Shown piece after piece: positions 7,495-34,700 of a DNA stretch of 64,000 nucleotides; within the stretch, counting starts at the first letter, position 1; each line of letters opens with the position of its first letter. The DNA is taken from assembly GCA_964502615.1 (NCBI GenBank), contig CAZCXF010000004.1:7199-71198 (forward strand). Direction: 5' to 3'. Position numbers and translations under genes: made by a program. The notes under the pieces are model-generated. The model was not told where the DNA came from. It saw only the letters and a program-made list of their open reading frames with translations, and made no database searches. The DNA is from an uncultured Candidatus Saccharibacteria bacterium. Its GTDB lineage: Bacteria; Patescibacteriota; Minisyncoccia; Phycocordibacterales; UBA9973.

Positions 7495-8406
7495 TTATTC
7501 AGCCTTAGTTAGTATTTCTATTGCTTTCGTAAGAAGTGGAATCATATTGTCGTACATTTTTAAGCCTGTGATTTCTTCCATTGGAAACCATTTAGCATCG
7601 TCGAGTCCTCCTGATTTATTTTTCAGTTCTATATATCCATAATCAGCTTCGGCAAGGAAAAAAGTTACTTGTTTCCTAATTTTACCCTTTTCAGGATGTG
7701 TAGCGATATATTCATTTTGTCCTAGCATTTCTTTTATTTTTATTTCAAGACCGAGTTCTTCTTTTATCTCTCTTACTGCTCCTGCTTCAACGTCTTCATT
7801 TTCTTCTACACCACCCTTTGAAAGAGTCCAGTATCCAAATACATCATGTACAAATGCAAAATATATATTTCCATTATCCTTAGAATATATAACTGCCCCA
7901 GCTTTTTTTTCTATTGGAAATTTACTTGGATCAGTTTCGTGATTCTTAATTTTATTTTTTGGCTTACCGACATCATCTTTACCTGGTTCACCAAGCTCCT
8001 TGTACACTCCACCCAAAACTCCATTTATAAATTTACTAGAATTCTCTCCGCCAAAGCTTTTGGCAAGCTCGATAGATTCATTGATAGCAACCTTTGGCGG
8101 AACTTGAGTTCTGTCTCCAAAAAGCAACTCATATAAGCCTAAGCGTAATATATTCCGATCTACTACTGAGATCTTTTCAATTGGCCAATCTGGAGCTGCT
8201 TTTTCAATTATTTCATCAATAATAGCTTTCTTTTTGACGACACCAAGAAAAATTTCACTCATAAAAGAAGAATCATCAAGTCCAGGACCGAATTCTTCTA
8301 TATTATGATCTAGCATTTCCTCTGGAGTTACATCTTTTTGTGCACCAAAATCCCACTCAAAGAGCGTTTGTAGAACAATTGAACGTGAAAGGTGCCTGTT
8401 TGCCAT
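7495..8406 (-). CDS. NusB-like N-terminal domain fused to a C-terminal NUDIX hydrolase domain
   Basis: N-terminal ~140 aa NusB-like ('ILRLGLYELLF…AINESIELAKSFGGENSSKFINGVLG'). C-terminal Nudix box 'GGVEENEDVEAGAVREIKEELGL' (GX5EX7REUXEEXGU). Confidence 0.75.
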   Translation of the reverse strand: MANRHLSRSIVLQTLFEWDFGAQKDVTPEEMLDHNIEEFGPGLDDSSFMSEIFLGVVKKKAIIDEIIEKAAPDWPIEKISVVDRNILRLGLYELLFGDRTQVPPKVAINESIELAKSFGGENSSKFINGVLGGVYKELGEPGKDDVGKPKNKIKNHETDPSKFPIEKKAGAVIYSKDNGNIYFAFVHDVFGYWTLSKGGVEENEDVEAGAVREIKEELGLEIKIKEMLGQNEYIATHPEKGKIRKQVTFFLAEADYGYIELKNKSGGLDDAKWFPMEEITGLKMYDNMIPLLTKAIEILTKAE

Positions 8407-14137: not shown

Positions 14138-14641
14138 TTAAGGGTTATTATAGCAACCTTTTTGAGTCTGGCTACCATTACCAACAGAGGACCCATCATA
14201 GGTACCACTACTACCCACACAATAATCATGTCCAGTTGGATTACTACCTAAATATACTGGTGTATTTAGACTAGTAGAAATAGAATATTTTTGAGAAGTA
14301 GGATTATTTGCACCCACGTAAAATCCTCCCGCCGAATCTTTAACAATTCGCTTACATACTGCTTGAGCATCACTTGCATAAGCACTAGAGGTAAATCCTA
14401 AATCACAATCCTGAGCAGTATAAAAATATGTTGCCGGAGACTCAATGTTTGCATAACTTCCGTTGTCAGCGTATTCTTGTAAAAGTATTTTTACAAACTC
14501 AGTGAATTCTCTTCTAACTGAGGCATCTTTTGCATTATTCCGTGCATTAGATGACATAGCCATTACTACACTTGCAAGTATTGCAATGATAGCCACAGCA
14601 ACAAGGAGTTCGATTAACGTAAAACCTTTTTGAGTTTTCAT
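14138..14641 (-). CDS. Type IV pilin / pseudopilin with an N-terminal prepilin cleavage-methylation motif
   Basis: 'KGFTLIELLVAVAIIAILASVV' is the canonical G|FTLIE class III signal peptide. 167 aa. Confidence 0.75.
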   Translation of the reverse strand: MKTQKGFTLIELLVAVAIIAILASVVMAMSSNARNNAKDASVRREFTEFVKILLQEYADNGSYANIESPATYFYTAQDCDLGFTSSAYASDAQAVCKRIVKDSAGGFYVGANNPTSQKYSISTSLNTPVYLGSNPTGHDYCVGSSGTYDGSSVGNGSQTQKGCYNNP

Positions 14642-14683: not shown

Positions 14684-15760
14684 CTAGTTAACTTCTTTTA
14701 TTTTATTTTTAATATCTTGTTCGAGATTTTTAACTTCTTTTAATTCTCCTATGAGACTAGCACTAGCAGATTCGAGTTCTGCTATTTCTTCTTCTAACTC
14801 ATTAATTTTACTTGTTTTTTGAGGATACCTATAAACAAAGTTTGCTCTTTTCTTTCTTAAGAAAATAAGGAGTAAGATAAATATTATAATTACAAGAGAA
14901 ATTATAACTATTGAGTTCATATTGCTTTTAAAATCAAAAGAAAATATGCCAGGGTTAATCTTTTCATTTGGTAAAGAAATCCATTTATCTATTATCTGTT
15001 GGTGTTCTTTTGCACTTATTTTTTGTAGACCTTTAGCTAATATAGAGCTCAATACAGTTTTATCTTTGGGTACGATAAAAGCCATTTTAGAATCAAGAGT
15101 AAGGCTACCAACCACTTTAATACTTCTCATTGATTGCTTTGATAATAGATATGTTAAAGATGCAGAATTAATAACAGTAGCATCTACTTCATTTAAGGCT
15201 ACTTTTTGTAATGCAAGTTCACCGTCTACAACTTCTTCTGTTATAACTCTTGGATAATTTTGTTTAATATAAGAAACAACCGGAGAACCTTTAATAACTG
15301 CTACGCTTCTATTATTGAAATCATCCAGTGTCATACCTTCGCGTGAGTCATAATCTTTGCGTACCGCTATAACTACCGGAAAAATTGCGTATGGTTCACT
15401 GAAAATAACCGGTAAATCTTGGTTTTTATCAATCTCTAGAGTCGATATATAGTCAACCTTAGGTTCGTTCATACTTAAGATTATGTCAGATCTGGTACGA
15501 GGAGTTATAAAATCAACTTTTATATCAAGCTTCTCGGCTACAAGTTTAATATAATCTACAAAAATTCCTTGTGATATATAAGAAGAATCATTGAATGAAA
15601 AAGGGGGGTTATTCCTCTCAGGAATAACAGAGATTGTATTATTCCTAGATGATAACCATATGTTTTCCTCACTACTTAGAAGATCTGATTGGGCGTTTGC
15701 GACCAAAAAAGGATTGGTAAAAAAAAGAGCTAATATAATATATATAGGGAATAATTTCAT
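14684..15760 (-). CDS. Secreted SBP_bac_3-like (family 3 solute-binding) domain, then a single TM helix and a short cytoplasmic coiled coil
   Basis: Signal peptide and ~250 aa periplasmic-binding-fold region. TM 'IVIISLVIIIFILLLIFL'. C-terminal heptad 'INELEEEIAELESASASLIGELKEVKNLEQDIK'. Confidence 0.55.
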   Translation of the reverse strand: MKLFPIYIILALFFTNPFLVANAQSDLLSSEENIWLSSRNNTISVIPERNNPPFSFNDSSYISQGIFVDYIKLVAEKLDIKVDFITPRTRSDIILSMNEPKVDYISTLEIDKNQDLPVIFSEPYAIFPVVIAVRKDYDSREGMTLDDFNNRSVAVIKGSPVVSYIKQNYPRVITEEVVDGELALQKVALNEVDATVINSASLTYLLSKQSMRSIKVVGSLTLDSKMAFIVPKDKTVLSSILAKGLQKISAKEHQQIIDKWISLPNEKINPGIFSFDFKSNMNSIVIISLVIIIFILLLIFLRKKRANFVYRYPQKTSKINELEEEIAELESASASLIGELKEVKNLEQDIKNKIKEVN

Positions 15761-15774
15761 GTTGTAATTATAAT

Positions 15775-16857
15775 TTAAGTTTCAATTTTTTTTATCTTCT
15801 CCTTTATATTTTCTTCAAGAGCTTTAACTTCATTTAATTCGTACATCAATCCCTTGCTTGTATCTTCAAGTTCAATAATTTCTTCTTTTAACTCCTCAAC
15901 TGCATCTAATTTAGCGTGCCTTCTTAGAGAAAAGTGTCCGTGCTTCTGTCTTAAAAGTAAAATTATTATTATAAAACAAAGAAGAATATATAATATTATT
16001 GTACTTAAATTACTCTTTACATAAGGTACAAAAGAACTTGCGGATTTTATTTCACTTGGTACTACTACCCATTTTTCTGTAATAACTTTACGATCATCAG
16101 TGCTTATTTGTTGCAATCCTTTATCTATAATTGATTGTAAGATTTCTTTATCTTTAGGAACTGCAAAAGATAGTTTATATTCAAATCCGGTACTTCCAAC
16201 GATCTTTACACTGTTTAGTACTTGTTTAGAGAGATAATATGACAGAGATGTTACATCTATAATTGCTGCATCAACTTCTCCCAATACTACTTGTTGTAAG
16301 CCTAGTTCATCGTCCGTCACAGATTCAATAACAACTCTTGGATTATTGGTTCTAACAAAATCTTCAACCGCATATTTACTACCAATAGCAACTTTTTTTC
16401 CAGTTAAATCGGCAAGAGTTAAATTACTTCCAATATCTATATCTTTCCTCACGACAATGACAGCGGGGCTCGTAATATATACATCAGAAAAATATAAAAA
16501 TTCACTTCGATCTTTAGTTTCTGACAGAGATGTAATAACATCACCTCTACTATCTTGTTTAACATCATCTAGGATCTGAGAAAGTGAGCGAGCTGGTAAA
16601 TACTCAATTTTGGCTCCCAACTTTTTAGCAACCATTTCAATATAGTCTATTGATAAACCCTGTGGGATTCTGGAAGAGGTTTGATATGAATATGGAGGAA
16701 AATTTTTCTCTGGATATACAACTATAGTGTTGTTACGAGACTTAAGCCACAAGTTTTCTTGGGGTGTTAATATATCACTATTAGCCATTATTATATTAGG
16801 GGAAATTGATATAAGGCCGAAAATACTTAGAAATACCAAGTGGCGGAATCTCTTCAT
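15775..16857 (-). CDS. Paralog of 14684..15760 (SBP_bac_3-like ectodomain + TM + C-terminal coiled coil)
   Basis: Collinear with its neighbour at ~40% identity, e.g. 'NLWLKSRNNTIVVYPE' vs 'NIWLSSRNNTISVIPE'. Confidence 0.55.
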   Translation of the reverse strand: MKRFRHLVFLSIFGLISISPNIIMANSDILTPQENLWLKSRNNTIVVYPEKNFPPYSYQTSSRIPQGLSIDYIEMVAKKLGAKIEYLPARSLSQILDDVKQDSRGDVITSLSETKDRSEFLYFSDVYITSPAVIVVRKDIDIGSNLTLADLTGKKVAIGSKYAVEDFVRTNNPRVVIESVTDDELGLQQVVLGEVDAAIIDVTSLSYYLSKQVLNSVKIVGSTGFEYKLSFAVPKDKEILQSIIDKGLQQISTDDRKVITEKWVVVPSEIKSASSFVPYVKSNLSTIILYILLCFIIIILLLRQKHGHFSLRRHAKLDAVEELKEEIIELEDTSKGLMYELNEVKALEENIKEKIKKIET

Positions 16858-16876
16858 AGTTTACATAATACCATAT

Positions 16877-18022
16877 CTATTCCCTTTTTTCAGCAGGAAC
16901 GGGAGATATTGGGGCTTGAGATAGAATCTTATCCTGACGCTCCAACTCATGCTCTGTAAGTTGTATTTTCTCTTCTTCTAGACCCATTTTACGTTTTAGG
17001 ATACGCATACGTCTTGATGAATACCAAGGTATAAAGTATATAAGCATTATCAAACCAACTATTGGTATAAGCAGTATTAGTATATTGATGAATATAATTA
17101 GTGCTTTTATGATTTTACTATCATTTACAAATAATCTGACCCCGAGTCCTGGCTTATTAATATTGTTGTCATTATCTACCAAAAATGGTGTTGCATTATA
17201 GACACCCGCAACTAGATTGTTAGGTGTAATATATTCAAATAATCCTTTGTCGTTGTTTTTAACCAAGACATCAGTTAGACGTTTCTTTTTGGATTGTATA
17301 AAGTCCATAAACTGCTCACCAAAAGACTTACTAGAAACTTCTTCAAAAGATAATTTGGTTAGGGCATTAGGTTCTCCTTTTCCTTTCAAATAAGCACTAT
17401 CCTTTGAAAGTACTGATTGCGAATATTCGGTTATCACAGGCAACGCCAGCAATTTATTATTATTTGTCTTAGCAATTGGCCTTATTAAGTCGAGAGCTCC
17501 AGAAGCTATAATATTAAAACTTGTAGAATTTAATCCATTTATTATATTAGTTCCGAGTCCATCATTTGCAAGTATTGATCCTTCATTAAAAGACACTGTT
17601 GCATTACCAGTCTTCTTAGCTTGAAATACTATGTGAAAAATACTACCTCCTTGTCCAGTGTATCCAGGATTTAATATCACTCCTTCAAAAGATATTTTAT
17701 TTCTACTAACATTTGGATCATGTGTCCATATATTCAAAATACTATTATCCCTTGAAATAGAACTTATTTGTATCAAATCCCCAGGGAATGTAATAGACCC
17801 TGAGACAGCGTTTATTGCTTGGTCTGGTGATTTAACTTTGACATCGATTGTTATATTTTCTCCTTCCGATACCGTCGTCTGAGATTTACTTAGAAAAAGT
17901 GATGCTTGGCCTGCATATACAGGAGTAGCAATAAATACTACTAATATTAGAACACTATATATTATAGTTCTTACGTAGTATTTCATCTTTTTCTTTTTAC
18001 CACAAAAAACAGAAAATAGCAA
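16877..18022 (-). CDS. Membrane-anchored surface protein with an N-terminal cohesin-like domain
   Basis: Signal/TM, then 'ISFEGVILNPGYTGQGGSIFHIVFQAKKTGNATVSFNEGSILANDGLGTNII' resembling the cohesin beta-sandwich C-terminal strands. C-terminal TM anchor 'IIFINILILLIPIVGLIMLIYF'. Confidence 0.4.
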   Translation of the reverse strand: MLFSVFCGKKKKMKYYVRTIIYSVLILVVFIATPVYAGQASLFLSKSQTTVSEGENITIDVKVKSPDQAINAVSGSITFPGDLIQISSISRDNSILNIWTHDPNVSRNKISFEGVILNPGYTGQGGSIFHIVFQAKKTGNATVSFNEGSILANDGLGTNIINGLNSTSFNIIASGALDLIRPIAKTNNNKLLALPVITEYSQSVLSKDSAYLKGKGEPNALTKLSFEEVSSKSFGEQFMDFIQSKKKRLTDVLVKNNDKGLFEYITPNNLVAGVYNATPFLVDNDNNINKPGLGVRLFVNDSKIIKALIIFINILILLIPIVGLIMLIYFIPWYSSRRMRILKRKMGLEEEKIQLTEHELERQDKILSQAPISPVPAEKRE

Positions 18023-18852
18023 GATATTAATATAATAAATACTCCTAGCAATTGAAGTGATGATAGCAAACCAGGTATCTCAACACTAGATTCTCTAATA
18101 TTACCATTGAAATCCAGAGCCCGGACAATGATTGATCTTTTTACTATTCCCTTTGATATCTCAAAAGGGCTCACAACATCCTTCCAATAGCTATGTGAAT
18201 CTTTTATTTGATATTTTTCTACTCCAGAAATAGTATCAGTAGTAAAGAAAGATATCATCGATGGCGTTTTAGAGAAAAATCCTGAAGGAATGTATTCAAC
18301 TACAAATGGTTCCGGTGGCTCTTTATCCCCGCTACTATTCTCAGTAAGATTTATTTTTTGATCTTCTGGTATGTTAATTAAAGTCGTTGCATTGTTTCTG
18401 ACATGGCCTAGGGGCGTTCCAAGGCCATCATTTTGTAGAATACTAGAATCACTAATAGTAAATTCACCTGTGCCATTTATTTTTGGAGAAAACAATAACT
18501 CAGTTATAGGTATAGGTTGTAATCCAACTTTATCAGGGTCATACAAGCCTTCAACTCCACCAGGAATAATCCCAGAAAAATGAATTTTACCTCCGTCATC
18601 TTTTGGAGTTTGAAGCCATAATTTTTTTATACCACCATCTTCTTTGTAACCTTTAAATACAAAAAGCTCTTTGGGATATTCTATTGTAATATCCATAGAG
18701 TTAACTGATACCCCTCCAGAATTTAGATTTACCAATACACTAAATTGACCTGTGCTTTCTATTTTATTTGGAGCAACAATAGAAACATCAGCTGCATATG
18801 CAACCAATGTACTACTTAGAAATATTGCAACTATTAGTAAAAAATTTTTCAT
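17983..18852 (-). CDS. Second membrane-anchored cohesin-like protein (paralogous domain)
   Basis: 'KIHFSGIIPGGVEGLY…GTGEFTISDSSILQNDGLGTPL' shares the 'IL(A/Q)NDGLGT' motif with the upstream protein. C-terminal TM anchor. Confidence 0.4.
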   Translation of the reverse strand: MKNFLLIVAIFLSSTLVAYAADVSIVAPNKIESTGQFSVLVNLNSGGVSVNSMDITIEYPKELFVFKGYKEDGGIKKLWLQTPKDDGGKIHFSGIIPGGVEGLYDPDKVGLQPIPITELLFSPKINGTGEFTISDSSILQNDGLGTPLGHVRNNATTLINIPEDQKINLTENSSGDKEPPEPFVVEYIPSGFFSKTPSMISFFTTDTISGVEKYQIKDSHSYWKDVVSPFEISKGIVKRSIIVRALDFNGNIRESSVEIPGLLSSLQLLGVFIILISCYFLFFVVKRKR

Positions 18853-18875
18853 ATCTTTATTATTTTAATAATACA

Positions 18876-19772
18876 TTAACCAGTCCAATAAAAAGCGAGA
18901 ATTGAAAAATCGACTAGATTAATAATATTGTCATTGTTAGTATCCACGCACCTTGGTGGGTTATCCTTACCATACCAGAAAGCTGCAACTGAGAAATCGG
19001 TAATGTTAATGACTTGGTCTGCGTTGCAATCTCCAGGAATATTGTTGGTTAGATCAACGCTTAAAATATTTGCTTCTCCTATTGTAAACTGAATTACTTT
19101 ACTTATTTTTTTATCATCATGATAATTGACGTGTAGATTGTAACTTCCCTTTTTAAATCCTAAGAGTGGTAAAACAAGTTTATATTTACCATCACTTCCA
19201 CTAGTTAGGTTGAATATCTTATTTGGAACTCCTTCTATGACAACATCTAAAAATTGGTTAGGTAATGAATAACCCAGTACTCCTAAATAATCACCTTGTT
19301 TTACTTCTGTCTTATCTGTAGCAATCGTTGGCGGGAAACGAATACCGCTAACCTGAGTAAGATAATCGATTTTTGCAACAATTGGATAATTAAGTAGGAT
19401 TGATTGCCTATTTGCTTTATCTATCGCATAAAGTGTATATAAGACATTTGATTTATACAATTCGCTAAAAGTTATACTAAAATATCCACTATTATCGGCA
19501 ACTGTGGTTCCTTTTGGGACTCCATCTTTCCATACGTGAACAGTAGCACCTGGATAAGCCCAACCAGAGAAAACAATTCCACTAAAGCGCCCACTATGAC
19601 ATCCACTACAATTATCATCAAGTGGTGTTGCGAAACCACCTACAGTTGCTGTAACAGATACATTTTCAGGAGAACTTACAATAGTAAAACCAAATACTGG
19701 TTGAATAGAAATCAGTAAAAAAAATATAAAGGAGATAAATTTTATAACATTTTTTTTATACATGATTGGCAC
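18876..19772 (-). CDS. Secreted protein with an Ig-like beta-rich body and a C-terminal type I dockerin-like double Ca-binding repeat
   Basis: 'DCNADQVINITDFSVAAFWYG…DTNNDNIINLVDFSILAFYW'. Both repeats match D-x-N-x-D-x3-N-x2-D followed by a hydrophobic helix. Confidence 0.6.
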   Translation of the reverse strand: MPIMYKKNVIKFISFIFFLLISIQPVFGFTIVSSPENVSVTATVGGFATPLDDNCSGCHSGRFSGIVFSGWAYPGATVHVWKDGVPKGTTVADNSGYFSITFSELYKSNVLYTLYAIDKANRQSILLNYPIVAKIDYLTQVSGIRFPPTIATDKTEVKQGDYLGVLGYSLPNQFLDVVIEGVPNKIFNLTSGSDGKYKLVLPLLGFKKGSYNLHVNYHDDKKISKVIQFTIGEANILSVDLTNNIPGDCNADQVINITDFSVAAFWYGKDNPPRCVDTNNDNIINLVDFSILAFYWTG

Positions 19773-20787
19773 CGTTTGGTGTATTCATACCAAGACGAGC
19801 CTTCTGTATAATATGTCGATTGTAACGTCGAATCAGTTTCTTACCACCCCAGAATACAATTATAAAGATAACAGCTAGACATATAAGCAATTGCCAAGGA
19901 AGTACGAAGAAGAAAACTGTCTCAGTTGCACGAGTTGCATTTGTACCATATAAAACATTTAATTTTGCAAAGTAAGGTCCAAAAGCATAGTTGTGCCATT
20001 CATAAAGTGCTTGATCAAAGAAATTAGCTATTAAACCAGTTGGAGCTATATAATCTTTTGATCTTGGTTTTTTAACCCAATCAACATTAAATTTTCGAGT
20101 ACTTTTAGGGAGTATATTTCCTCCACCTGGATTAGCATCAATAGTATCTTCTGGTATGTAAATTAAGTCATGCATTTTTATCTTACCAACTGGTTTTATT
20201 CTGTCTCCTCCATCATTTTTAAAACGATAACTAAAAGATACTGGTAATGTAGTATAAAAGATTTTTTTATCTTTCATTGAGAAATCAAGTAGTCCTCCCT
20301 CTTCTTTCACATCTCCGTTAACCGATAGCAATATCAATATTCCAGCTCGAGCACCGATTGAAAGTCCTGCCCCTTCTGTATCTGGAGTCGTACTCCAAAA
20401 TATTGCAGCGAAATGTCCTCCTGGCTCAGCGTTTTTAGGAATATTAATATGGAAGTTTAAAGTTTTAGATTCTTTAGGTTTTAAAGTTACAGAAGAATCT
20501 GTAGTCATCCAAGTTCCTAGATCTTCTTTAGCATTAACAAATGAAGGGTTACCAGATTCTCCAGAAGCTTCGAAGTTAGCAAATGAAGAGTAATATGTGA
20601 TTAGACCATCACTTTCATTAGTAAGGATTATTTCTTTAGTAATAGACTCACCAGGATTACCTGTAACTTCTATTCTTACGGGAGAAAGTGTAATAGCATA
20701 CGCACTACCTCTAAACCCAAGGAACAAAGCAAGGGTTAGAACCAAGAAGGTAATCTGTCTTCTTTTGTTGAAGTAAGTACGAGTCAT
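19756..20787 (-). CDS. Secreted, C-terminally TM-anchored Ig-fold protein (DUF916/CscA-like or PapD-chaperone-like)
   Basis: Signal peptide. 'ITLSPVRIEVTGNPGESITKEIILTNESD' resembles the first strand motif of pilus chaperones and DUF916. C-terminal TM 'LLICLAVIFIIVFWGG' plus a basic tail. Confidence 0.4.
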   Translation of the reverse strand: MTRTYFNKRRQITFLVLTLALFLGFRGSAYAITLSPVRIEVTGNPGESITKEIILTNESDGLITYYSSFANFEASGESGNPSFVNAKEDLGTWMTTDSSVTLKPKESKTLNFHINIPKNAEPGGHFAAIFWSTTPDTEGAGLSIGARAGILILLSVNGDVKEEGGLLDFSMKDKKIFYTTLPVSFSYRFKNDGGDRIKPVGKIKMHDLIYIPEDTIDANPGGGNILPKSTRKFNVDWVKKPRSKDYIAPTGLIANFFDQALYEWHNYAFGPYFAKLNVLYGTNATRATETVFFFVLPWQLLICLAVIFIIVFWGGKKLIRRYNRHIIQKARLGMNTPNGANHV

Positions 20788-20797
20788 TAAATTTAGA

Positions 20798-22009
20798 TTA
20801 GAATGTAGCAGTTGCTATAAATGTAAGAGTGTCGGCGTAGTCATTGTGAGCAGGAACAGCGCCGCTTATTGAAGCATTAACTGCAACCTGAGCACGACCA
20901 CCTGCAAGGAGACCGGATGATGAAACCATGTTATCTCCAGTTGTAGTTAAACCTTTAACATCGTTAGTACCACCATCTGCTGCACATGTACCAGCGTTGT
21001 AAGGTGCTGCTTTTGAAAGAGTTCCCGTTGTTTGAGTTACAGATATAACACAAAGACCATAGTTTGTTGTGTTTGTAGCCATTGCTGCAGCTGTGTTTGT
21101 AATCTTATCTGCAGGAGTCGAAGTAGACACTAAACCGTTTGCACCATTTGCATTTTTAACAGTCACCACTACTCCACTAGGAGCATTTGTATCAAGGTCC
21201 ATCATTATTCTATTAATACCATCAGTTGCTCCAGAAACTTTAACGTCTGATGTACTTAAAGATCCAAGTGGTACATTGTATGGTGCACTAGTATTTTCAC
21301 TACCAGCTGTACCTACGTCTAGATCAAAAGTAAGTGTAGAATTAACTGTCGCAGTAACATTTACTTGGTCATCATCTACTATACCGTAAGCAATTTGACT
21401 TGAGTGTGAATTAACGAATGTTGTAAAACAAGCTGCTCCAGATTGTTCGTCACACATTTTAAAGTCAATATTTGTAGCAGCAACAGATGAAGGATTTGTA
21501 AGTACTCCTGTACCTCCAGTCTCACCCTTTATTGTAAATGTAATAGCTGAGGCAGTTGAGGAAGAAGTAAAAGTTGATGCAGGTTTAACAGTAAAAATTA
21601 AATTTGTAGTATCTATTGCGACACACACACTTTGAGCAGTAGTAGCAGTACAAGTAATAGTACCTGCACCTGCAGACACAGCATCTATAGTGTGAGAACC
21701 GTTACTATCAGAGAAAGCAAAGTCAGATGTTTGCCATGTTCCACTTTGAGAAAAGGTTGCAGGAAAGTCTACTTGAAATCCATCAAGATTACCTCCTGTT
21801 ACATCAAAGTCTACTCCAGTAGGCATTGTAAATGTTACAACATGGTCTGCATTAGCACTTATTTTAAGACGAGTTGCTGTATCTTTTGATGCAGTAAAAC
21901 TCGCAGCAGTTGCCAATTGTGGACCAAATGAATAAACGACTATAAGTGCAATTGTTAGAAAGGCACTTAAAAATTTAGAGAACGTAGATTTTATAATGTG
22001 TGTGCTCAT
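20798..22009 (-). CDS. Secreted Thr/Ser/Ala-rich beta protein ending in a Csu/SCPU-pilin-like (or WxL-like) C-terminal strand 'AHNDYADTLTFIATATF'
   Basis: Signal peptide. The C-terminal motif resembles the CsuA/B terminus 'GDYKDTLLVTVNF'. Confidence 0.45.
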   Translation of the reverse strand: MSTHIIKSTFSKFLSAFLTIALIVVYSFGPQLATAASFTASKDTATRLKISANADHVVTFTMPTGVDFDVTGGNLDGFQVDFPATFSQSGTWQTSDFAFSDSNGSHTIDAVSAGAGTITCTATTAQSVCVAIDTTNLIFTVKPASTFTSSSTASAITFTIKGETGGTGVLTNPSSVAATNIDFKMCDEQSGAACFTTFVNSHSSQIAYGIVDDDQVNVTATVNSTLTFDLDVGTAGSENTSAPYNVPLGSLSTSDVKVSGATDGINRIMMDLDTNAPSGVVVTVKNANGANGLVSTSTPADKITNTAAAMATNTTNYGLCVISVTQTTGTLSKAAPYNAGTCAADGGTNDVKGLTTTGDNMVSSSGLLAGGRAQVAVNASISGAVPAHNDYADTLTFIATATF

Positions 22010-22125
22010 TTTGAATAAATGATTTTATTGATTAATAATAATTAAATTTTCTACCCTTATTTTACCACAACAAGATACGAAATCCTATATATAAACTATA
22101 AGATGTGGATAACTTTGGCCTTTAG

Positions 22126-23217
22126 TTAAAAGGTCCCTGTGGCGATAAAGGTCAATGTATCTGCATAATCATTATGGGCTGGAGTCGAAGTACTATTTTC
22201 TGCATTTACTCTAATTTCTGACCGTCCACCAACAATACCAGATGATACAGTAAGAATATTCCTAGATGTATTATCAACTAGACCAACCGAATTAACGTGT
22301 CCACTTGTGCATGGTGATCCATCATAAGGATTTGCTTTAGTTAAAGTACCTCCTGAAGATTGAGTAACTGAACCGACACAGAGTCCATATCTTGCAACAT
22401 TGGGAGCCATTGTTCCAGTAGTTGATGGAATTGAATCAGTAGGTACAGATGTTGATTTTAGAGCACCATTCTTAGATAAAACTGTAACAGCTGCACCACC
22501 AGATGCATTTGTATCTAAATCTACCCATATAGAATTTATAGTACTATTATCAGAATTGCTTGCCTGGGCTGTCGACAATGTACCGAGAGCTACATTATAT
22601 GGAGCAACTGTATTAGTATTTGAAGTAGAAGTATCAATATCAAATGTAATGGTCTGAGGTATAACAGTTGCGCAAACTTTTCTTGTGTATGCAGTTGTGT
22701 TCCCTACTGTTGCATTATCAGCTGGGTTTGCAGGATTTCCAATCATAGAAAATAAAGTTGTATCGTAACCAGTGCAGTTTGTATCTTGATAAGCAATAGT
22801 TATAGTATCGTTTCCAGCTGCATCAGATAAACATGCACTTTGTCCATACGTGTTAACACTTGTTTCCTGTACGTGAGCATTTGTTACAGCAGATAGTCTT
22901 ACAATTCTCTGAAAATTTCCAGAGCAAGAATTCCCAATAGCTGAAACGCTACTACAACATACAACATTGCCGTCATAATTTGCATTTGATTGACTCGGAA
23001 GTTCTGCGTGAGCATTTGTCGAACCTGACATGCGAAGTAATGTAGTGAAACCACTTGTATTACAAGATGACTGTGATACTACGTTGCAAGAAAGCGCCGC
23101 ATATATACGCGAAACTGGATAAAGAGCCGACACAACAAAAACGATTATTAATATAAAATTAAAACGTTTTGTCTTTAAGTGGCCCTGTTGTTTTTTCTGG
23201 TACTGGTGGTGGTACAT
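22126..23217 (-). CDS. Paralog of 20798..22009 (identical C-terminal 'AHNDYADTLTFIATGTF'); the true start is probably an internal Met
   Basis: Shared blocks 'APYNV(P/A)LG(S/T)LST', '(M/V)DLDTNA(P/S)', 'YGLCV…VTQ' and the same C-terminus. The 5' end overlaps 23159..23677. Confidence 0.45.
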   Translation of the reverse strand: MYHHQYQKKQQGHLKTKRFNFILIIVFVVSALYPVSRIYAALSCNVVSQSSCNTSGFTTLLRMSGSTNAHAELPSQSNANYDGNVVCCSSVSAIGNSCSGNFQRIVRLSAVTNAHVQETSVNTYGQSACLSDAAGNDTITIAYQDTNCTGYDTTLFSMIGNPANPADNATVGNTTAYTRKVCATVIPQTITFDIDTSTSNTNTVAPYNVALGTLSTAQASNSDNSTINSIWVDLDTNASGGAAVTVLSKNGALKSTSVPTDSIPSTTGTMAPNVARYGLCVGSVTQSSGGTLTKANPYDGSPCTSGHVNSVGLVDNTSRNILTVSSGIVGGRSEIRVNAENSTSTPAHNDYADTLTFIATGTF

Positions 23218-31762: not shown

Positions 31763-34700
31763 TTAGGTTGTTGTTGGTGGCGGAGTGTTGTCAGCTGGTG
31801 GTGGGTTACTACCTCCATCTGTTGGTGGTTGCGTATTGTCAGCTGGTGGTGGGTTACTACCTCCATCTGTTGGTGGTTGCGTATTGTCAGCTGGTGGTGG
31901 GTTGTTACTGCCTCCATCTGTTGGTGGCGGATTTGTTGGAACTGGATCAGGAGTAAGGCCTGTTTCCTCTAAGATACTTTCAAATATTTTTGGGTCTTTT
32001 ACTGAAAATACTGTCCATGAGAATCTTATATCTCTATTCGGTGTTTTATTCAAAAGTATTGTGAACCCTGTTTGGTCTTTATCGACTACTATATATCTTA
32101 TATCTTCTCCAAACAAACTCGCTGCGGCACTATCATCAACATTGTCATCTTTTTCAAAAGTCATAGATGCGTTTACAACTGGAGTTGAAATATATGGCTT
32201 ATCAAATACTATTTTTGCTCTCCTGTCCCCTGCTTTTATGAGTGCATAACCAGCAGTATCTTTATTAAACAATGGCGGTAATGAAAATTCCGCTTGCTTG
32301 CTGAAAACAACATCACCATCAAATGTTGTTGTATTGGAGAAGAAGGATAAGCCATTAAATTTCGCTTGACCTGCAAATGAACTATCACCTGTAACTGAGA
32401 GCATATTCATTGTAAATCCATTTACATTTCCATCGGCATCTTTAGTCAAGAAACTTTCGATAACTTTTAGCCTTGTATCGAGGTCTGTTCCACTTGTTGT
32501 AAGCCCTGCGATAGTAGTACTTGCAGTAGTAAGATCTTCTTGCAATTTTTTAATATCTGCTTGAGCAATAGTCAAAGCACTAGATAGTGTATTCATACCC
32601 TCCGCAGTTAGAGTAAAGGCTTGTTGTCCCTCAGCAAGAGAATTAATCTGATCGGTAATTGCTTGTACTCCGGATATATCTCCCAATTTAATATCGTGTG
32701 CTGTGACAGTACCTTTAAATGTTGCATTGCCAAGACTATCAAATACGATAGCTGGATTTACACTATTTGAAGTATTTGTACCATCTTTAGTACCTATTAT
32801 AAACTTACCATTTTCGTTTAGTATTAGATTTATATCATCACCCGTAGCAGATTTGAGAGTATTTGTTGCAAGTACATCCGTCGTAATTTTTGGAGTTATT
32901 ATTTCAACTGCAGCAACTAGCCTATCTGCATATAAGTCAGACATGTCTAGTGTATTTGCATTAGGATCTACCGTTGGACCTGGAGCAGTGCGTGATGCGA
33001 CAACATCGCTTAACAATTTAGCAAGAACTTTTTGACCAAATTCCTGTTTATCAGCAACTGGGGCTTCTGGAGTATTTGGTGTATCACCTGTATTTGGAGT
33101 AAGACCACTTAGTAGAGTAGAGTCTTCAGTTATAGATTCCAACTTCTGACCGTTGTAGTATCCAGGTTGAACGAACAATATAACCACACCCATACGATCT
33201 GGATCAACATTTGGATCATCAACTGCAGGATTCCAACCAGTCAAAGCTTGACCTATAACATGACCTGCTTTTGTAGCCTTCATAGCCCAGCCTGGATGCG
33301 AGGATGTTGTAAGATAATCACCTGGTTTGATAATACCATTCATAGCAGATACTTTTACTGGAACACGTCCAGCCAAGGCAAGGACAACACTCTTTGCTCC
33401 TTGTCTTAGCATTCCTGAACCCATCACCATATCTGGTTGAGTTGATATAACTCCAGCAACATTAGAATCGTATTTTTTACTACTCATTTTTACACCGGCT
33501 TCAAGATCAGGATCAAATGATACGACATCAGCAGCTTCAATAAGTGGATCATTAGTTGCATAAAATTCTCCGAGGTCGGCACCAGATGCTCCACGAATTT
33601 CAATAATACGTACTTCTCCACGGCCTCCGTTACCTCCAGCACCTCCGGTAACTCCAGGACCTCCACCTCCTCCACCACCACCAGGATTTCCTCCGTTACC
33701 TCCAGCACCTCCAACTCCAGCAGCAGCATTGTTCGCTCCTCCTCCACCTCCTCCGTATCCAGCAGTACCAGTAGAGTTTGCATCTGCAGAGTTTGCACCA
33801 TTTCCTCCAGCTCCTGCTGCGGCTCCTCCTCCAGCTCCTCCTCCTCCAGCAACCCAGTTTTGAGTTCCTCCAGATTTTCCTCCAGCTCCTCCTGCTGATG
33901 CAGCGTTGTTTCCAAGAACTTGTCCTCCAGCTCCTCCTCCACCTCCTCCCCATATTGAAGTTCCTCCAGCTCCTCCTGTAACAAGAGCAGCGTTGTTTGA
34001 TCCAGCAGTTGAACCTCCTCCACCTCCTCCGTATATTGCAGAACCTCCGGCACCAGCGGCAGTGTTTGTAGCTGTACCTCCTCCACCTCCTCCGAATTGA
34101 CCTCCGGATGCGTTAGCAGCACCTCCGTTTGGACCTCCTCCAGTACCTCCAGTTGCAGATGGAGAGTTTGAACCGACAGCGCCAGTACCTCCTCCACCTC
34201 CTCCACCAGACCCAGCAGCAGCTATACCTCCCTTACCTCCTCTACCTCCACCATAAGCTTCAATAAATACAGTTGATGTAGCAGAACAAGCCGCATTTAC
34301 AGAGACACATGCAGTATCTCCAGCAGTACCGTTTGTAGCACTTGCACCTCCAGTCACAGCTGCAGGAGCTTGAACGTTTACAGCAGATGAAGTAAAGTTT
34401 GCACCATCAAATGTTTTTGTAACATATGCTCCTCCTCCACCTCCTGAACCTCCCATACGAGGGTTTGCTACTGCAGCTGCCTGTCCTCCACCTCCTGAAC
34501 CTCCTCCTCCGATTGCTTCAATAATCAAAGATTTAACACCTGCTTTTTTGGTGTAAGTAGTGTTTGAAGTAAATACGTTGTAGTTTACATCACCACAAGT
34601 TGCGACAGTGATAGTACCGTTTGTATCCATATTCATACAACCGTTTGCTGATGGTTTGTCAGGAAGAGTGATTGTATAGTCTGTAGTTATTGAAGCTGGT

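What the first reader, a model, noticed from the sequence alone, without database searches (positions are those of the whole stretch)
14684..16857. Tandem paralogs: periplasmic-binding ectodomain + TM + short cytoplasmic coiled coil, a sensor with no output domain
- Both proteins pair an SBP_bac_3-like (amino-acid-binding fold) ectodomain with a single TM helix and a ~55-aa cytoplasmic heptad-repeat tail ('INELEEEIAELESASASLIGELKEVKNLEQDIKNKIKEVN', 'AVEELKEEIIELEDTSKGLMYELNEVKALEENIKEKIKK').
- The topology resembles the sensing half of SBP-type histidine kinases (BvgS-like) or chemoreceptors, truncated just where a signalling helix would begin.
- No ABC permease or ATPase accompanies them.
- They may signal through coiled-coil partner proteins, or tether ligands or partner cells at the surface.
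Basis: partly seen in the sequence, partly recalled or inferred. Interest (0 to 1): 0.55.

Follow-up and report, generated by a model that had tools for sequence, protein, structure and literature searches.

The report
Anchored flytrap receptors lacking output domain
Two adjacent genes of a Patescibacteria (CPR) bacterium encode membrane-anchored ligand-binding 'Venus flytrap' proteins that resemble the sensing half of bacterial sensor kinases but end in a short leucine-zipper-like tail, and one of them is the fixed last gene of a conserved cell-surface gene cassette that I found no paper about, rather than a transporter part or a broken kinase gene.

Summary
winA (14684-15760, 358 aa) and winB (15775-16857, 360 aa) lie on the minus strand and are 42% identical. 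Each has a signal peptide, one SBP_bac_3/Venus-flytrap (VFT) domain, one TM helix and a ~57-aa cytoplasmic tail with 5.5 clean heptads.

They are not kinase fragments. More than 200 protein clusters from Patescibacteria have the same ~360-aa architecture and a conserved tail. Their closest relatives by sequence and fold are sensor-type VFTs (RmcA, BvgS, EvgS and multi-VFT histidine kinases), not transport binding proteins.

No ABC importer or two-component gene was detected in the window, and none recurs in related loci.

- The winB type is always the last gene of a conserved, tightly packed cassette (G0/G1-G2-G3-G4-G5-SBP) of secreted or membrane-anchored proteins. This holds in 37 of 37 related loci. 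G3 looks dockerin-like, G4 and G5 cohesin-like, and G2 and G5 also carry conserved cytoplasmic tails.
- The winA type occurs in only a few relatives and has lost the canonical amino-acid-anchoring Arg and Asp.

Best reading: an output-less, zipper-dimerised VFT receptor subunit of an uncharacterised surface complex. The function is inferred, not shown.

The parts
15775..16857 (-). winB: the universal ('B-type') VFT-TM-coiled-coil protein, 360 aa
   Evidence: ORF. SBP_bac_3 E 1.8e-21. More than 200 orthologous clusters of 355-370 aa. AF2 model pLDDT 83.7.
14684..15760 (-). winA: second copy ('A-type'), 358 aa, found in only a few relatives, with an altered ligand pocket
   Evidence: ORF. SBP_bac_3 E 2.4e-18. 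42% identical to winB. 11 orthologous clusters at 62-78% identity, some on the same contigs as B-type orthologues. Present in only 3 of 37 related loci. Has Gln and Asn where GlnH has R75 and D157.
16066..16722 (-). winB Venus-flytrap (SBP_bac_3) ectodomain, residues 46-264. It is preceded by the conserved 'LTPQENLWLKSRNN' helix typical of sensor VFTs.
   Evidence: Pfam. PDB sequence hits RmcA 7ejg E 2.6e-27, BvgS, EvgS. Foldseek TM 0.92 to 7ejg and 0.89 to BvgS VFT2.
15940..16008 (-). winB transmembrane helix, residues ~284-306
   Evidence: AF2 helix 284-307. Hydrophobic stretch followed by a basic cluster, consistent with the positive-inside rule.
15778..15906 (-). winB cytoplasmic coiled-coil tail, residues 318-360 (5.5 heptads)
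   Evidence: Heptad table: a/d positions 320-358, with a conserved polar Ser/Asn at a334 and Glu (99%) at a348. Single helix 313-359 in the model. Profile matches dimeric leucine zippers.
14978..15631 (-). winA Venus-flytrap ectodomain, residues 44-261
   Evidence: Pfam. Alignment with GlnH and the family.
14858..14914 (-). winA transmembrane helix, residues ~283-301
   Evidence: Sequence and alignment with winB.
14687..14809 (-). winA cytoplasmic coiled-coil tail, residues 318-358, with the same heptad frame as winB
   Evidence: Alignments.
16877..18022 (-). G5: signal peptide, cohesin-like domain, Ig-like region, TM helix and a conserved cytoplasmic tail (invariant YFIPWYS..M..EE). Always directly upstream of the SBP gene. 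The real start is probably the ATG at 17986.
   Evidence: Synteny in 37/37 loci. Gaps of -17 to +51 nt, including 4-nt overlaps. Invariant columns. Pfam Cohesin in 4 of 31 orthologues, best E 1.7e-6.
17983..18852 (-). G4: signal peptide, domain homologous to the G5 N-terminal (cohesin-like) domain, TM helix, short KRKR tail
   Evidence: BLASTP G4 vs G5 E 6e-12. Synteny. Tail statistics.
18876..19772 (-). G3: secreted protein with a Big_6 Ig domain and a very conserved C-terminal dockerin-like duplicated motif (DCNADQVINITD / DTNNDNIINLVD)
   Evidence: Pfam Big_6 E 1e-6, Dockerin_1 E 0.007, below threshold. Alignment. The motif is read directly from the sequence.
19756..20787 (-). G2: signal peptide, Ig-like domains, TM helix and a conserved basic cytoplasmic tail (net +6)
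   Evidence: Weak WxLIP_PGBD hits in 16/32 and fn3_5 in 18/32 orthologues. Invariant tail columns. Tail charge.
20798..22009 (-). G1: secreted Thr/Ser/Ala-rich protein of unknown fold; first conserved gene of the cassette
   Evidence: Synteny. No Pfam, NCBIfam or PDB match. AF2 model unusable.
22126..23217 (-). G0: paralogue of G1 sharing its C-terminal ~190 aa and the invariant end PAHNDYADTLTFIATxTF
   Evidence: Alignment. Present upstream of G1 in many related loci.

Best explanation
winB and winA are complete genes for single-pass membrane receptors. A cleaved signal peptide exports one Venus-flytrap (type II PBP) domain. A TM helix anchors it. A ~57-aa cytoplasmic tail forms a 5.5-heptad leucine-zipper-like helix that most likely holds two chains together, as B-B or, where winA exists, possibly A-B. 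The ectodomain descends from the sensor-kinase branch of VFTs (BvgS/EvgS/RmcA type), but the protein ends after the juxtamembrane coiled coil and has no enzymatic output.

The winB type is a fixed component, the last and probably translationally coupled gene, of a conserved cassette of Paceibacteria-type Patescibacteria. That cassette encodes secreted and C-terminally anchored surface proteins: G0/G1 of unknown fold, G2 Ig-like, G3 dockerin-like, G4 and G5 cohesin-like. I infer that it is the small-molecule-recognition subunit of that surface complex. The B-type keeps an amino-acid-type pocket. Any 'output' would be exerted on the complex itself, through the TM/cytoplasmic tails it shares with G2 and G5, rather than through phosphorylation or transport. 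winA is a duplicate found in only a few relatives, with a remodelled pocket.

Shown: architecture, family, relatives, synteny, tail conservation and pocket residues. Inferred: dimerisation, ligand class, physical association with G2-G5 and function.
For: Architecture:
- ORFs, Pfam hits and 42% paralogy.
- Confident AF2 model with VFT, TM helix and a single long helix.

Family:
- 211 hits; the best 120 are almost all 340-390 aa, from Patescibacteria sources.
- The tail is more conserved than the TM and stalk. L330, L337, E340 and E348 are each conserved in >=94% of members.
- Clean a/d heptads.
- The tail profile best matches dimeric parallel zippers such as CREB, Fos, GCN4 and CC-Di. Pfam bZIP_1 hits 27/32 members.

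Origin:
- Best PDB hits are the RmcA PBP domain, BvgS and EvgS.
- An exhaustive profile search is dominated by 1000-3000-aa proteins with 3-8 VFTs. Of the seven I scanned, five have kinase domains (HisKA/HisKA_2 and/or HATPase_c, with REC, GAF), one a PAS domain, and one only SBP_bac_3.
- Non-CPR loci encode VFT-TM-coiled coil-kinase proteins.
- The BvgS family has 2-6-heptad linkers after the TM helix (PMC5829827).

Cassette:
- Identical gene order in L001-L004.
- The SBP gene sits directly after G5 in 37/37 Patescibacteria loci.
- G5-to-SBP gaps are -17 to +51 nt, with 4-nt overlaps. Window gaps are 19, 14 and 42 nt, with no terminator-like site in those gaps.
- G2 and G5 have invariant cytoplasmic tail residues.
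- Flanking genes differ between clades and are housekeeping genes.

Pocket:
- The B-type keeps E50, S/T112, R/K117 (64/75) and D201 (75/75), aligned to GlnH D10, T70, R75 and D157.
- The A-type has Glu, Gln and Asn at the last three.
- The RmcA VFT binds L-arginine (PMC9028604).
Against: - No experiment or structure shows that the protein contacts G2-G5, dimerises or binds any ligand.
- Conserved synteny proves co-inheritance, not physical association.
- The carboxylate-binding Arg is only R in 44/75 and K in 20/75 of B-type members, so an amino-acid ligand is not assured.
- The cohesin and dockerin assignments of the neighbours are sub-threshold or hold in a minority of orthologues.
- G1 and G0 remain unidentified, so the nature of the 'complex' is itself a guess.
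- Whole genomes could not be inspected. A distant ABC permease or an orphan kinase partner cannot be excluded.
Confidence: 0.5

Rival explanations
1. Co-receptor for a separate signalling enzyme. The VFT senses a ligand, and its cytoplasmic coiled coil pairs with the coiled coil of a kinase, cyclase or other effector encoded elsewhere, giving a split BvgS-like sensor.
For: - It descends from sensor-kinase VFTs.
- The tail sits where BvgS-family linkers sit and has similar length.
- Conserved polar core residues (a334 Ser/Asn, a348 Glu 99%) are typical of dynamic or partner-specific coiled coils.
Against: - No HisKA, response regulator or GGDEF/EAL gene was detected in the 64-kb window.
- None is among the 25 most frequent Pfam families of 130 flanking genes from 27 related loci.
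- The only constant neighbours are surface proteins.
- The tail shows no residue-level similarity to kinase linkers or DHp, only to generic zippers.
Confidence: 0.17
2. An ordinary nutrient-capture binding protein of an ABC importer, tethered by a C-terminal TM helix because these cells have no periplasm. The permease and ATPase are encoded elsewhere. This is what public annotation says.
For: - It has the SBP_bac_3 fold and similarity to GlnH/ArtJ/ArgBP-type proteins.
- The B-type keeps most alpha-amino-acid-anchoring residues.
- Sources name it 'ABC-type amino acid transport substrate-binding protein'.
- Patescibacteria must scavenge amino acids (general knowledge).
Against: - It is never next to a permease or ATPase in the window or among the recurrent flanking genes of related loci. 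Polar-amino-acid SBP genes are normally in the transporter operon (general knowledge).
- The closest relatives are sensor VFTs, including the N-terminal 'T-x-E-E-x-x-W-L' helix.
- A 41-residue cytoplasmic helix with residues conserved in >=94% of members is unnecessary for a tether.
- The A-type lacks the Arg/Asp pair.
Confidence: 0.15
3. A structural or adhesive subunit. The flytrap fold has been co-opted as a protein- or cell-wall-binding module or spacer of the surface complex (for example in host attachment or surface-layer anchoring) and binds no small ligand.
For: - It is strictly linked to cohesin/dockerin-like, Ig-like and secreted proteins.
- The Arg position is variable in the B-type and the pocket is remodelled in the A-type.
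- SBP_bac_3 domains have non-transport roles elsewhere, such as MltF. I inferred that from a weak NCBIfam match and general knowledge.
Against: The ectodomain is the most conserved part (mean top-residue frequency 0.74). D201 is invariant and E50 is near-invariant at ligand-contact positions, which suggests a maintained small-molecule pocket.
Confidence: 0.15
4. Fragments of a disrupted histidine-kinase gene, or chance ORFs.
For: Only the architectural resemblance to the N-terminal half of VFT kinases.
Against: - Lengths are uniform at 355-370 aa in more than 200 clusters across a bacterial class.
- The stop position and tail are conserved.
- No kinase-domain ORF lies downstream: winA, a pilin gene and gyrB follow.
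- The A-subfamily shows strong purifying conservation.
Confidence: 0.01

Closest known systems
BvgS/EvgS-family Venus-flytrap sensor histidine kinases (including PAS-less members with an 'X linker')
   Same: The extracytoplasmic SBP_bac_3/VFT domain has the same N-terminal helix motif and the 'ILQSILEKGL..IS..ER' motif. A single TM helix is followed by a heptad coiled coil of 2-6 heptads. These are the best sequence, profile and fold matches.
   Different: There is only one VFT instead of 2-8. There is no DHp/HisKA, HATPase_c, receiver, HPt, PAS or GAF domain, because the protein ends after the coiled coil. The tail shows no 'LLAAA' or H-box similarity. The gene is encoded in a surface-protein cassette rather than next to a response regulator.
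RmcA (PA0575) periplasmic PBP domain, PDB 7EJG
   Same: It is the closest solved structure: phmmer E 2.6e-27, Foldseek TM 0.92, rmsd 1.9 A, 27% identity. It is a sensor VFT reported to bind L-arginine (PMC9028604).
   Different: RmcA continues into PAS-GGDEF-EAL domains and controls c-di-GMP. The proteins here have no such domains.
Polar-amino-acid ABC-transporter binding proteins (GlnH, HisJ/LAO, ArtJ, ArgBP; tethered SBDs of GlnPQ)
   Same: They share the fold. The B-type keeps counterparts of GlnH D10, T70, R75 and D157. Tethering of binding domains to the membrane is known in organisms without an outer membrane (general knowledge).
   Different: These are weaker matches than the sensor VFTs. 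No linked permease or ATPase is present. The conserved cytoplasmic leucine-zipper tail has no counterpart. The A-type lacks the Arg/Asp pair.
Class C GPCR-type flytrap dimers such as GABA-B (analogy only, from general knowledge)
   Same: A VFT ectodomain is paired with a paralogue whose pocket has lost ligand-anchoring residues, and both carry C-terminal cytoplasmic coiled coils.
   Different: There is no homology beyond the PBP fold, a single TM helix instead of seven, and no G-protein coupling. Heterodimerisation was not tested here.
Cohesin-dockerin cell-surface assemblies and Csc/WxL-type surface clusters of Gram-positive bacteria (for the cassette, not the SBP itself)
   Same: G3 carries a duplicated D-x-N-x-D-x-x-I-x-x-x-D dockerin-like motif. 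G4 and G5 share a cohesin-like domain. G2 weakly resembles the WxL-interacting protein domain and has a C-terminal TM anchor.
   Different: Most hits are below Pfam thresholds. No enzymes, WxL or LPXTG proteins were found. To my knowledge, no such cluster includes a VFT-TM-coiled-coil protein.

Membership tests
SBP_bac_3 / type II periplasmic-binding-protein (Venus flytrap) fold | Significant match to the family profile | tested here: met
   Pfam PF00497: 66.6 and 76.7 bits against a cut-off of 26.4.
SBP_bac_3 / type II periplasmic-binding-protein (Venus flytrap) fold | Bilobed alpha/beta fold superposable on solved members | tested here: met
   AF2 ectodomain pLDDT >90. Foldseek TM 0.92 to 7ejg, 0.89 to 3mpk and 0.84-0.90 to amino-acid binding proteins. 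Modelled for winB only.
BvgS/EvgS-family VFT sensor kinase | Extracytoplasmic VFT domain(s) of the sensor branch | tested here: met
   Best PDB and profile hits are sensor VFTs. Motifs are shared with VFT kinases in L039 and L042. There is only one VFT, whereas relatives have 1-8.
BvgS/EvgS-family VFT sensor kinase | TM helix followed by an alpha-helical coiled-coil linker | tested here: met
   TM 284-307 and helix 313-359. 5.5 heptads. The family range is 2-6 heptads (PMC5829827).
BvgS/EvgS-family VFT sensor kinase | DHp/HisKA domain with phospho-accepting His plus HATPase_c catalytic domain | tested here: not met
   No such Pfam or NCBIfam domain. The protein ends at residue 358/360. No His-box is present in the tail. 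No kinase ORF lies downstream.
ABC-importer substrate-binding protein (polar amino acid type) | Gene linked to permease and ATPase genes of an importer | tested here: not met
   None was detected in the 64-kb window. None is among the neighbours in L001-L004 or the 25 most frequent Pfam families of 130 flanking genes from 27 loci. Whole genomes were not inspected.
ABC-importer substrate-binding protein (polar amino acid type) | Residues anchoring the alpha-carboxylate and alpha-ammonium groups (GlnH T70, R75, D10, D157) | tested here: inconclusive
   The B-type has E50, S/T112, R117 (R 44/75, K 20/75) and D201 (75/75). The A-type has Glu, Gln and Asn at three of the four. This is based on sequence alignment only.
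ABC-importer substrate-binding protein (polar amino acid type) | Docking to a permease and substrate delivery | not testable with these tools
   Needs biochemistry.
Two-stranded parallel leucine zipper | Uninterrupted heptads with hydrophobic a/d positions | tested here: met
   10 of 12 core positions are >=94% hydrophobic across 77 sequences. The profile hits CREB, Fos, GCN4 and CC-Di. bZIP_1 hits 27/32 tails. This is a compositional or convergent likeness, not homology.
Two-stranded parallel leucine zipper | Actual dimer formation, and whether homo- or heteromeric | not testable with these tools
   Only single-chain prediction was available.
Cohesin-dockerin assembly (neighbouring genes G3-G5) | Dockerin with duplicated Ca-binding F-hand motif; cohesin beta-sandwich | tested here: inconclusive
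   G3 Dockerin_1 E 0.007, below the cut-off, but both 12-residue motifs are readable. Cohesin appears in 4/31 G5 orthologues, best E 1.7e-6. PDB cohesins reach only E ~0.5.

The most novel reading that the evidence does not exclude
The cassette G0/G1-G5 plus the flytrap protein encodes a so-far undescribed surface organelle of Paceibacteria, possibly for host attachment or sensing. The flytrap subunit would be a ligand-gated regulator with no enzymatic output. Ligand-induced closure would be passed through the TM helix and zipper to the equally conserved cytoplasmic tails of G2 and G5. Where winA exists, the receptor would be an obligate heterodimer of a ligand-binding (B) and a non-binding (A) flytrap, analogous to GABA-B receptors.
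Probability: 0.12. Interest if true: 0.8.

Novelty: new variant of a known kind. Interest (0 to 1): 0.55.

Why it matters
- Patescibacteria make up a large share of bacterial diversity and are thought to live attached to other cells, yet almost nothing is known about how they sense or bind their surroundings.
- This is a class-wide, strongly conserved receptor that keeps the sensing half and signalling helix of a BvgS-type kinase but has no enzyme domain. It is hard-wired into a six-gene surface cassette.
- If the inference holds, it gives a concrete, testable handle on ligand recognition at the CPR cell surface. The tests would cover the ligand of the flytrap, the partners of the tail and the structure of the complex.
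- It would also show how a two-component sensor can be reduced to a non-enzymatic module.
- It corrects the public annotation ('ABC-type amino acid transport substrate-binding protein', and in one case 'diguanylate cyclase').

Tried and rejected
- **Tail-only word-index search.** It found only 15 candidates and two contig-edge fragments (P0137, P0138), so it did not show whether the tail occurs on other ectodomains.
- **Alignment of the family profile through the TM helix and tail of seven multi-VFT sensor proteins.** It extends, but only through generic TM and coiled-coil similarity. I do not claim tail homology to kinase linkers.
- **bZIP likeness of the tail.** I considered a membrane-tethered DNA binder and rejected it. 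The basic linker is poorly conserved (entropy ~2.7), is low-confidence in the model, lacks the bZIP DNA-contact signature and sits directly under the membrane.
- **Structure of G1 from a two-sequence alignment.** pLDDT was 30.7, so the model is unusable and I ran no fold search on it.
- **afdb50 fold library.** It was unavailable.
- **PDB searches for the neighbours.** G5 and G1 were searched as single sequences and G5, G2 and G1 as profiles. Nothing significant was found.
- **NCBIfam on the neighbours.** G1, G2, G4 and G5 had no hits. G3 had only a sub-threshold repeat match.
- **Literature searches for the cassette or for output-less VFT receptors in CPR.** Nothing relevant was found.
- **Promoter and terminator scan.** It found no promoter-like enrichment over shuffles and no terminator-like site in the three short intergenic gaps of the operon.
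- **Neighbour-joining tree.** The A clade falls outside all B-types. This could mean old paralogy or rate acceleration, and is unresolved.
Full report
**1. Observation**

- winA, 14684-15760, 358 aa.
- winB, 15775-16857, 360 aa.

They are 42% identical end to end (E 2e-78). Both match Pfam SBP_bac_3 far above threshold (E 2.4e-18 and 1.8e-21).

I modelled winB with AlphaFold2 from a 77-sequence alignment (A1). The model has mean pLDDT 83.7, and >90 through residues ~30-260. It shows a signal helix (3-18), a bilobed alpha/beta domain, a TM helix (284-307), a low-confidence basic linker and one uninterrupted helix (313-359).

The window has about 33% G+C and typical Patescibacteria gene content: gyrB, a CNNM/CBS protein, thrS, a NusB-NUDIX fusion and RNase III. 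All close homologues come from Patescibacteria, under the labels Paceibacteria, Nomurabacteria, Parcubacteria and Minisyncoccia.

**2. Not a broken kinase, and not only a pair**

A search with winB returned 211 hits. The best 120 are almost all 340-390 aa, apart from a few shorter fragments and one of 409 aa, and carry only PF00497 (plus PF12974 in some).

The TM helix and the tail are present throughout. The tail consensus is ELKEExxELExxSxxLxEELxxVKxxExxIKEKIxxI.

Per-column statistics show how the regions compare:

| Region | Mean top-residue frequency |
|---|---|
| Flytrap domain | 0.74 |
| Tail helix | 0.55 |
| TM helix | 0.41 |
| Stalk | 0.38 |

So the tail is clearly more conserved than the TM helix and stalk, though less than the flytrap domain. 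L337 is invariant, L330 and E348 are at 97%, E340 at 94% and E331 at 92%.

In heptad notation, positions 320, 323, 327, 330, 337, 341, 344, 351, 355 and 358 are 94-100% hydrophobic. Two 'a' positions carry conserved polar residues: 334 is Ser/Asn and 348 is Glu in 99% of members.

A profile of the tail alone finds dimeric parallel zippers in the PDB (CREB E 5e-5, Fos, GCN4, designed CC-Di). It hits Pfam bZIP_1 in 27 of 32 members. I read this as convergent zipper character, which favours a two-stranded parallel coiled coil. It is not homology and not DNA binding.

winA defines a separate subfamily:
- There are 11 clusters at 62-78% identity. Three of them lie on the same contigs as winB orthologues.
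- Among 37 related species-level loci, only L005, L008 and L009 have the second copy.
- A neighbour-joining tree puts the A clade outside all B-types. That may reflect old paralogy or accelerated evolution.

**3. What the ectodomain is related to**

By sequence, the best solved relatives are the PBP domain of RmcA (7ejg, E 2.6e-27), BvgS (4q0c) and EvgS (9ilw). Transport binding proteins score lower. Foldseek gives the same order at the top: 7ejg TM 0.92, BvgS VFT2 0.89 and a histidine-kinase sensor domain 3h7m 0.88. Arg/Gln/Lys-binding proteins score similarly well.

An exhaustive HMMER search of 1.84 billion representatives with the family profile is dominated by 1000-3000-aa proteins containing 3-8 flytrap domains. 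About ten ~360-aa family representatives appear among the best 150.

I scanned seven of the long hits. All have 2-5 SBP_bac_3 domains. Five also have kinase domains (HisKA/HisKA_2 and/or HATPase_c, sometimes with REC or GAF). One has a PAS domain. One shows only the flytrap domains.

Non-CPR loci from the genome scan encode VFT-TM-coiled coil followed by PAS and kinase domains (L039, L042). In one Acidobacteriota case (L044) a small Cys-rich C-terminal module follows instead.

The BvgS family is known to have 2-6-heptad helical linkers directly after the TM segment in its PAS-less third (PMC5829827). The proteins here therefore keep the input half and a linker-like helix of that family and stop where PAS or DHp would begin. 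The HMMER alignment runs through the TM helix and tail of some of these proteins but without residue-level similarity, so homology of the tail is unproven.

**4. Pocket**

I aligned the family with E. coli GlnH, whose ligand contacts D10, T70, R75 and D157 I took from general knowledge.

| GlnH contact | B-type residue | B-type conservation | winA residue |
|---|---|---|---|
| D10 | E50 | 71/75 | Glu (kept) |
| T70 | S/T112 | T in 37/75; rest mixed | Glu |
| R75 | R117 | R 44/75, K 20/75 | Gln |
| D157 | D201 | 75/75 | Asn |

The Asn at the D157 position is conserved across the A subfamily (VINSAS). The A ectodomain is itself highly conserved, so it is functional but different.

The closest solved relative, the RmcA flytrap, is reported to recognise L-arginine (PMC9028604). 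An amino-acid-like ligand for the B-type is therefore plausible, but it is inferred.

**5. Context: the main new result**

Three relatives looked up by exact protein showed the same upstream genes, and these align gene by gene with the window.

A scan of one genome per species returned 47 loci, 37 of them Patescibacteria.
- In all 37, the SBP gene lies directly downstream of a G5 orthologue on the same strand.
- G3-G4-G5-SBP is present wherever upstream DNA exists.
- G2 is found in 31 loci, and G1/G0-type genes in most.
- G5-stop to SBP-start distances are -17 to +51 nt, with several 4-nt overlaps.
- In the window the gaps are 19 nt (G5 to winB), 14 nt (winB to winA) and 42 nt (winA to the pilin gene), and no terminator-like site falls in those gaps.
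- The flanks of the cassette differ between clades and are housekeeping genes (gyrB, thrS, ychF and others). No ABC importer or two-component family is among the 25 most frequent Pfam families of 130 flanking ORFs from 27 loci.
- No such gene was detected in the window either. The only ABC protein is an exporter-type half-transporter.

The cassette proteins all carry signal peptides:
- **G0/G1** are paralogous Thr/Ser/Ala-rich secreted proteins of unknown fold, with the invariant end PAHNDYADTLTFIATxTF.
- **G2** has Ig-like domains (weak WxLIP_PGBD and fn3_5 hits in half the orthologues) and a C-terminal TM helix. Its conserved basic tail has net charge +6 and invariant Y322, N323, I326, I327 and A330.
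- **G3** has a Big_6 domain and a duplicated dockerin-like 12-residue motif.
- **G4 and G5** share an N-terminal domain (E 6e-12). That domain reaches Pfam Cohesin in 4 of 31 G5 orthologues (best E 1.7e-6).
- **G5** has an invariant YFIPWYS..M..EE segment at the membrane-cytoplasm boundary and a ~53-aa tail.

So three or four cassette proteins, including the flytrap protein, present conserved sequences to the cytoplasm.

**6. Interpretation**

Shown:
- A complete, conserved, output-less VFT-TM-zipper protein of the sensor-kinase lineage.
- Obligatory co-inheritance and tight packing with a surface-protein cassette.
- A duplicate with a changed pocket, present in only a few relatives.

Inferred:
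- It dimerises through the zipper.
- It binds a small ligand, amino-acid-like for the B-type.
- It works as the recognition subunit of the cassette's membrane-anchored complex.
- Any signal acts on that complex through the tails rather than through an enzyme.

I put this at about 0.5. The rivals are:
- a split sensor pairing with a distant enzyme (0.17);
- a tethered ABC binding protein, as public annotation states (0.15);
- a purely structural or adhesive flytrap (0.15);
- kinase fragments (refuted).

**7. Novelty**

The fold and its sensor lineage are well known. I found no description of this architecture or of the cassette, and NCBIfam has no model for G1, G2, G4 or G5. I rate it a new variant of a known kind, embedded in what may be a new surface system. 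Interest is moderate to fairly high (0.55), limited by the lack of any functional evidence.

Noticed in passing
window 16877-23217 (minus strand); L005-L038, L040, L041, L051: A conserved cassette G0/G1-G2-G3-G4-G5 of secreted or C-terminally anchored proteins. It includes a dockerin-like motif in G3, a cohesin-like domain shared by G4 and G5, and invariant cytoplasmic tail motifs in G2 and G5. It is found with the SBP gene in 37/37 Patescibacteria loci and has no NCBIfam model and no paper that I found. It may deserve a finding of its own.
   Followed up: partly
window 31763-43093 (minus strand): A giant 3776-aa ORF with no Pfam match at E<=0.001. It lies in a stretch of clearly higher G+C (0.41-0.43, against ~0.33 elsewhere).
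   Followed up: no
window 14138-14641 (minus strand): A type IV pilin-like gene (N_methyl motif, E 2e-10) lies 42 nt downstream of winA. An orthologue sits in the same place only in the closest relative, L005. It is therefore not part of the conserved cassette.
   Followed up: partly
window 20798-22009 and 22126-23217 (minus strand): G1 and G0 are paralogues (38% identity). They share a C-terminal ~190-aa domain ending in the invariant PAHNDYADTLTFIATxTF, which suggests a terminal beta-strand of some fibre or pilus subunits. The fold is unknown, and the two-sequence AF2 model failed (pLDDT 31).
   Followed up: partly
L044:8605-10203 (Acidobacteriota MAG): A VFT-TM-coiled-coil protein whose only cytoplasmic module is a ~50-aa Cys-rich end (IPICCHCKKVRND...GFCPECARKL). 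This is another minimal-output variant of the flytrap sensor architecture.
   Followed up: no
P0135 (318 aa, high-G+C metagenome contig): A VFT + TM protein that ends ~10 residues after the membrane, with no coiled coil. Tail-less anchored flytraps therefore also exist outside Patescibacteria.
   Followed up: no
window 7495-8406 (minus strand); also L001, L002: A NusB domain fused to a NUDIX hydrolase domain in one 303-aa protein. The fusion is conserved in relatives.
   Followed up: no
P0112; P0287 (exact winA sequence): Public names for family members are misleading. One is called 'Diguanylate cyclase with PAS/PAC sensor' although it is 361 aa with only an SBP_bac_3 domain. Others are called 'ABC-type amino acid transport substrate-binding protein'.
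   Followed up: yes
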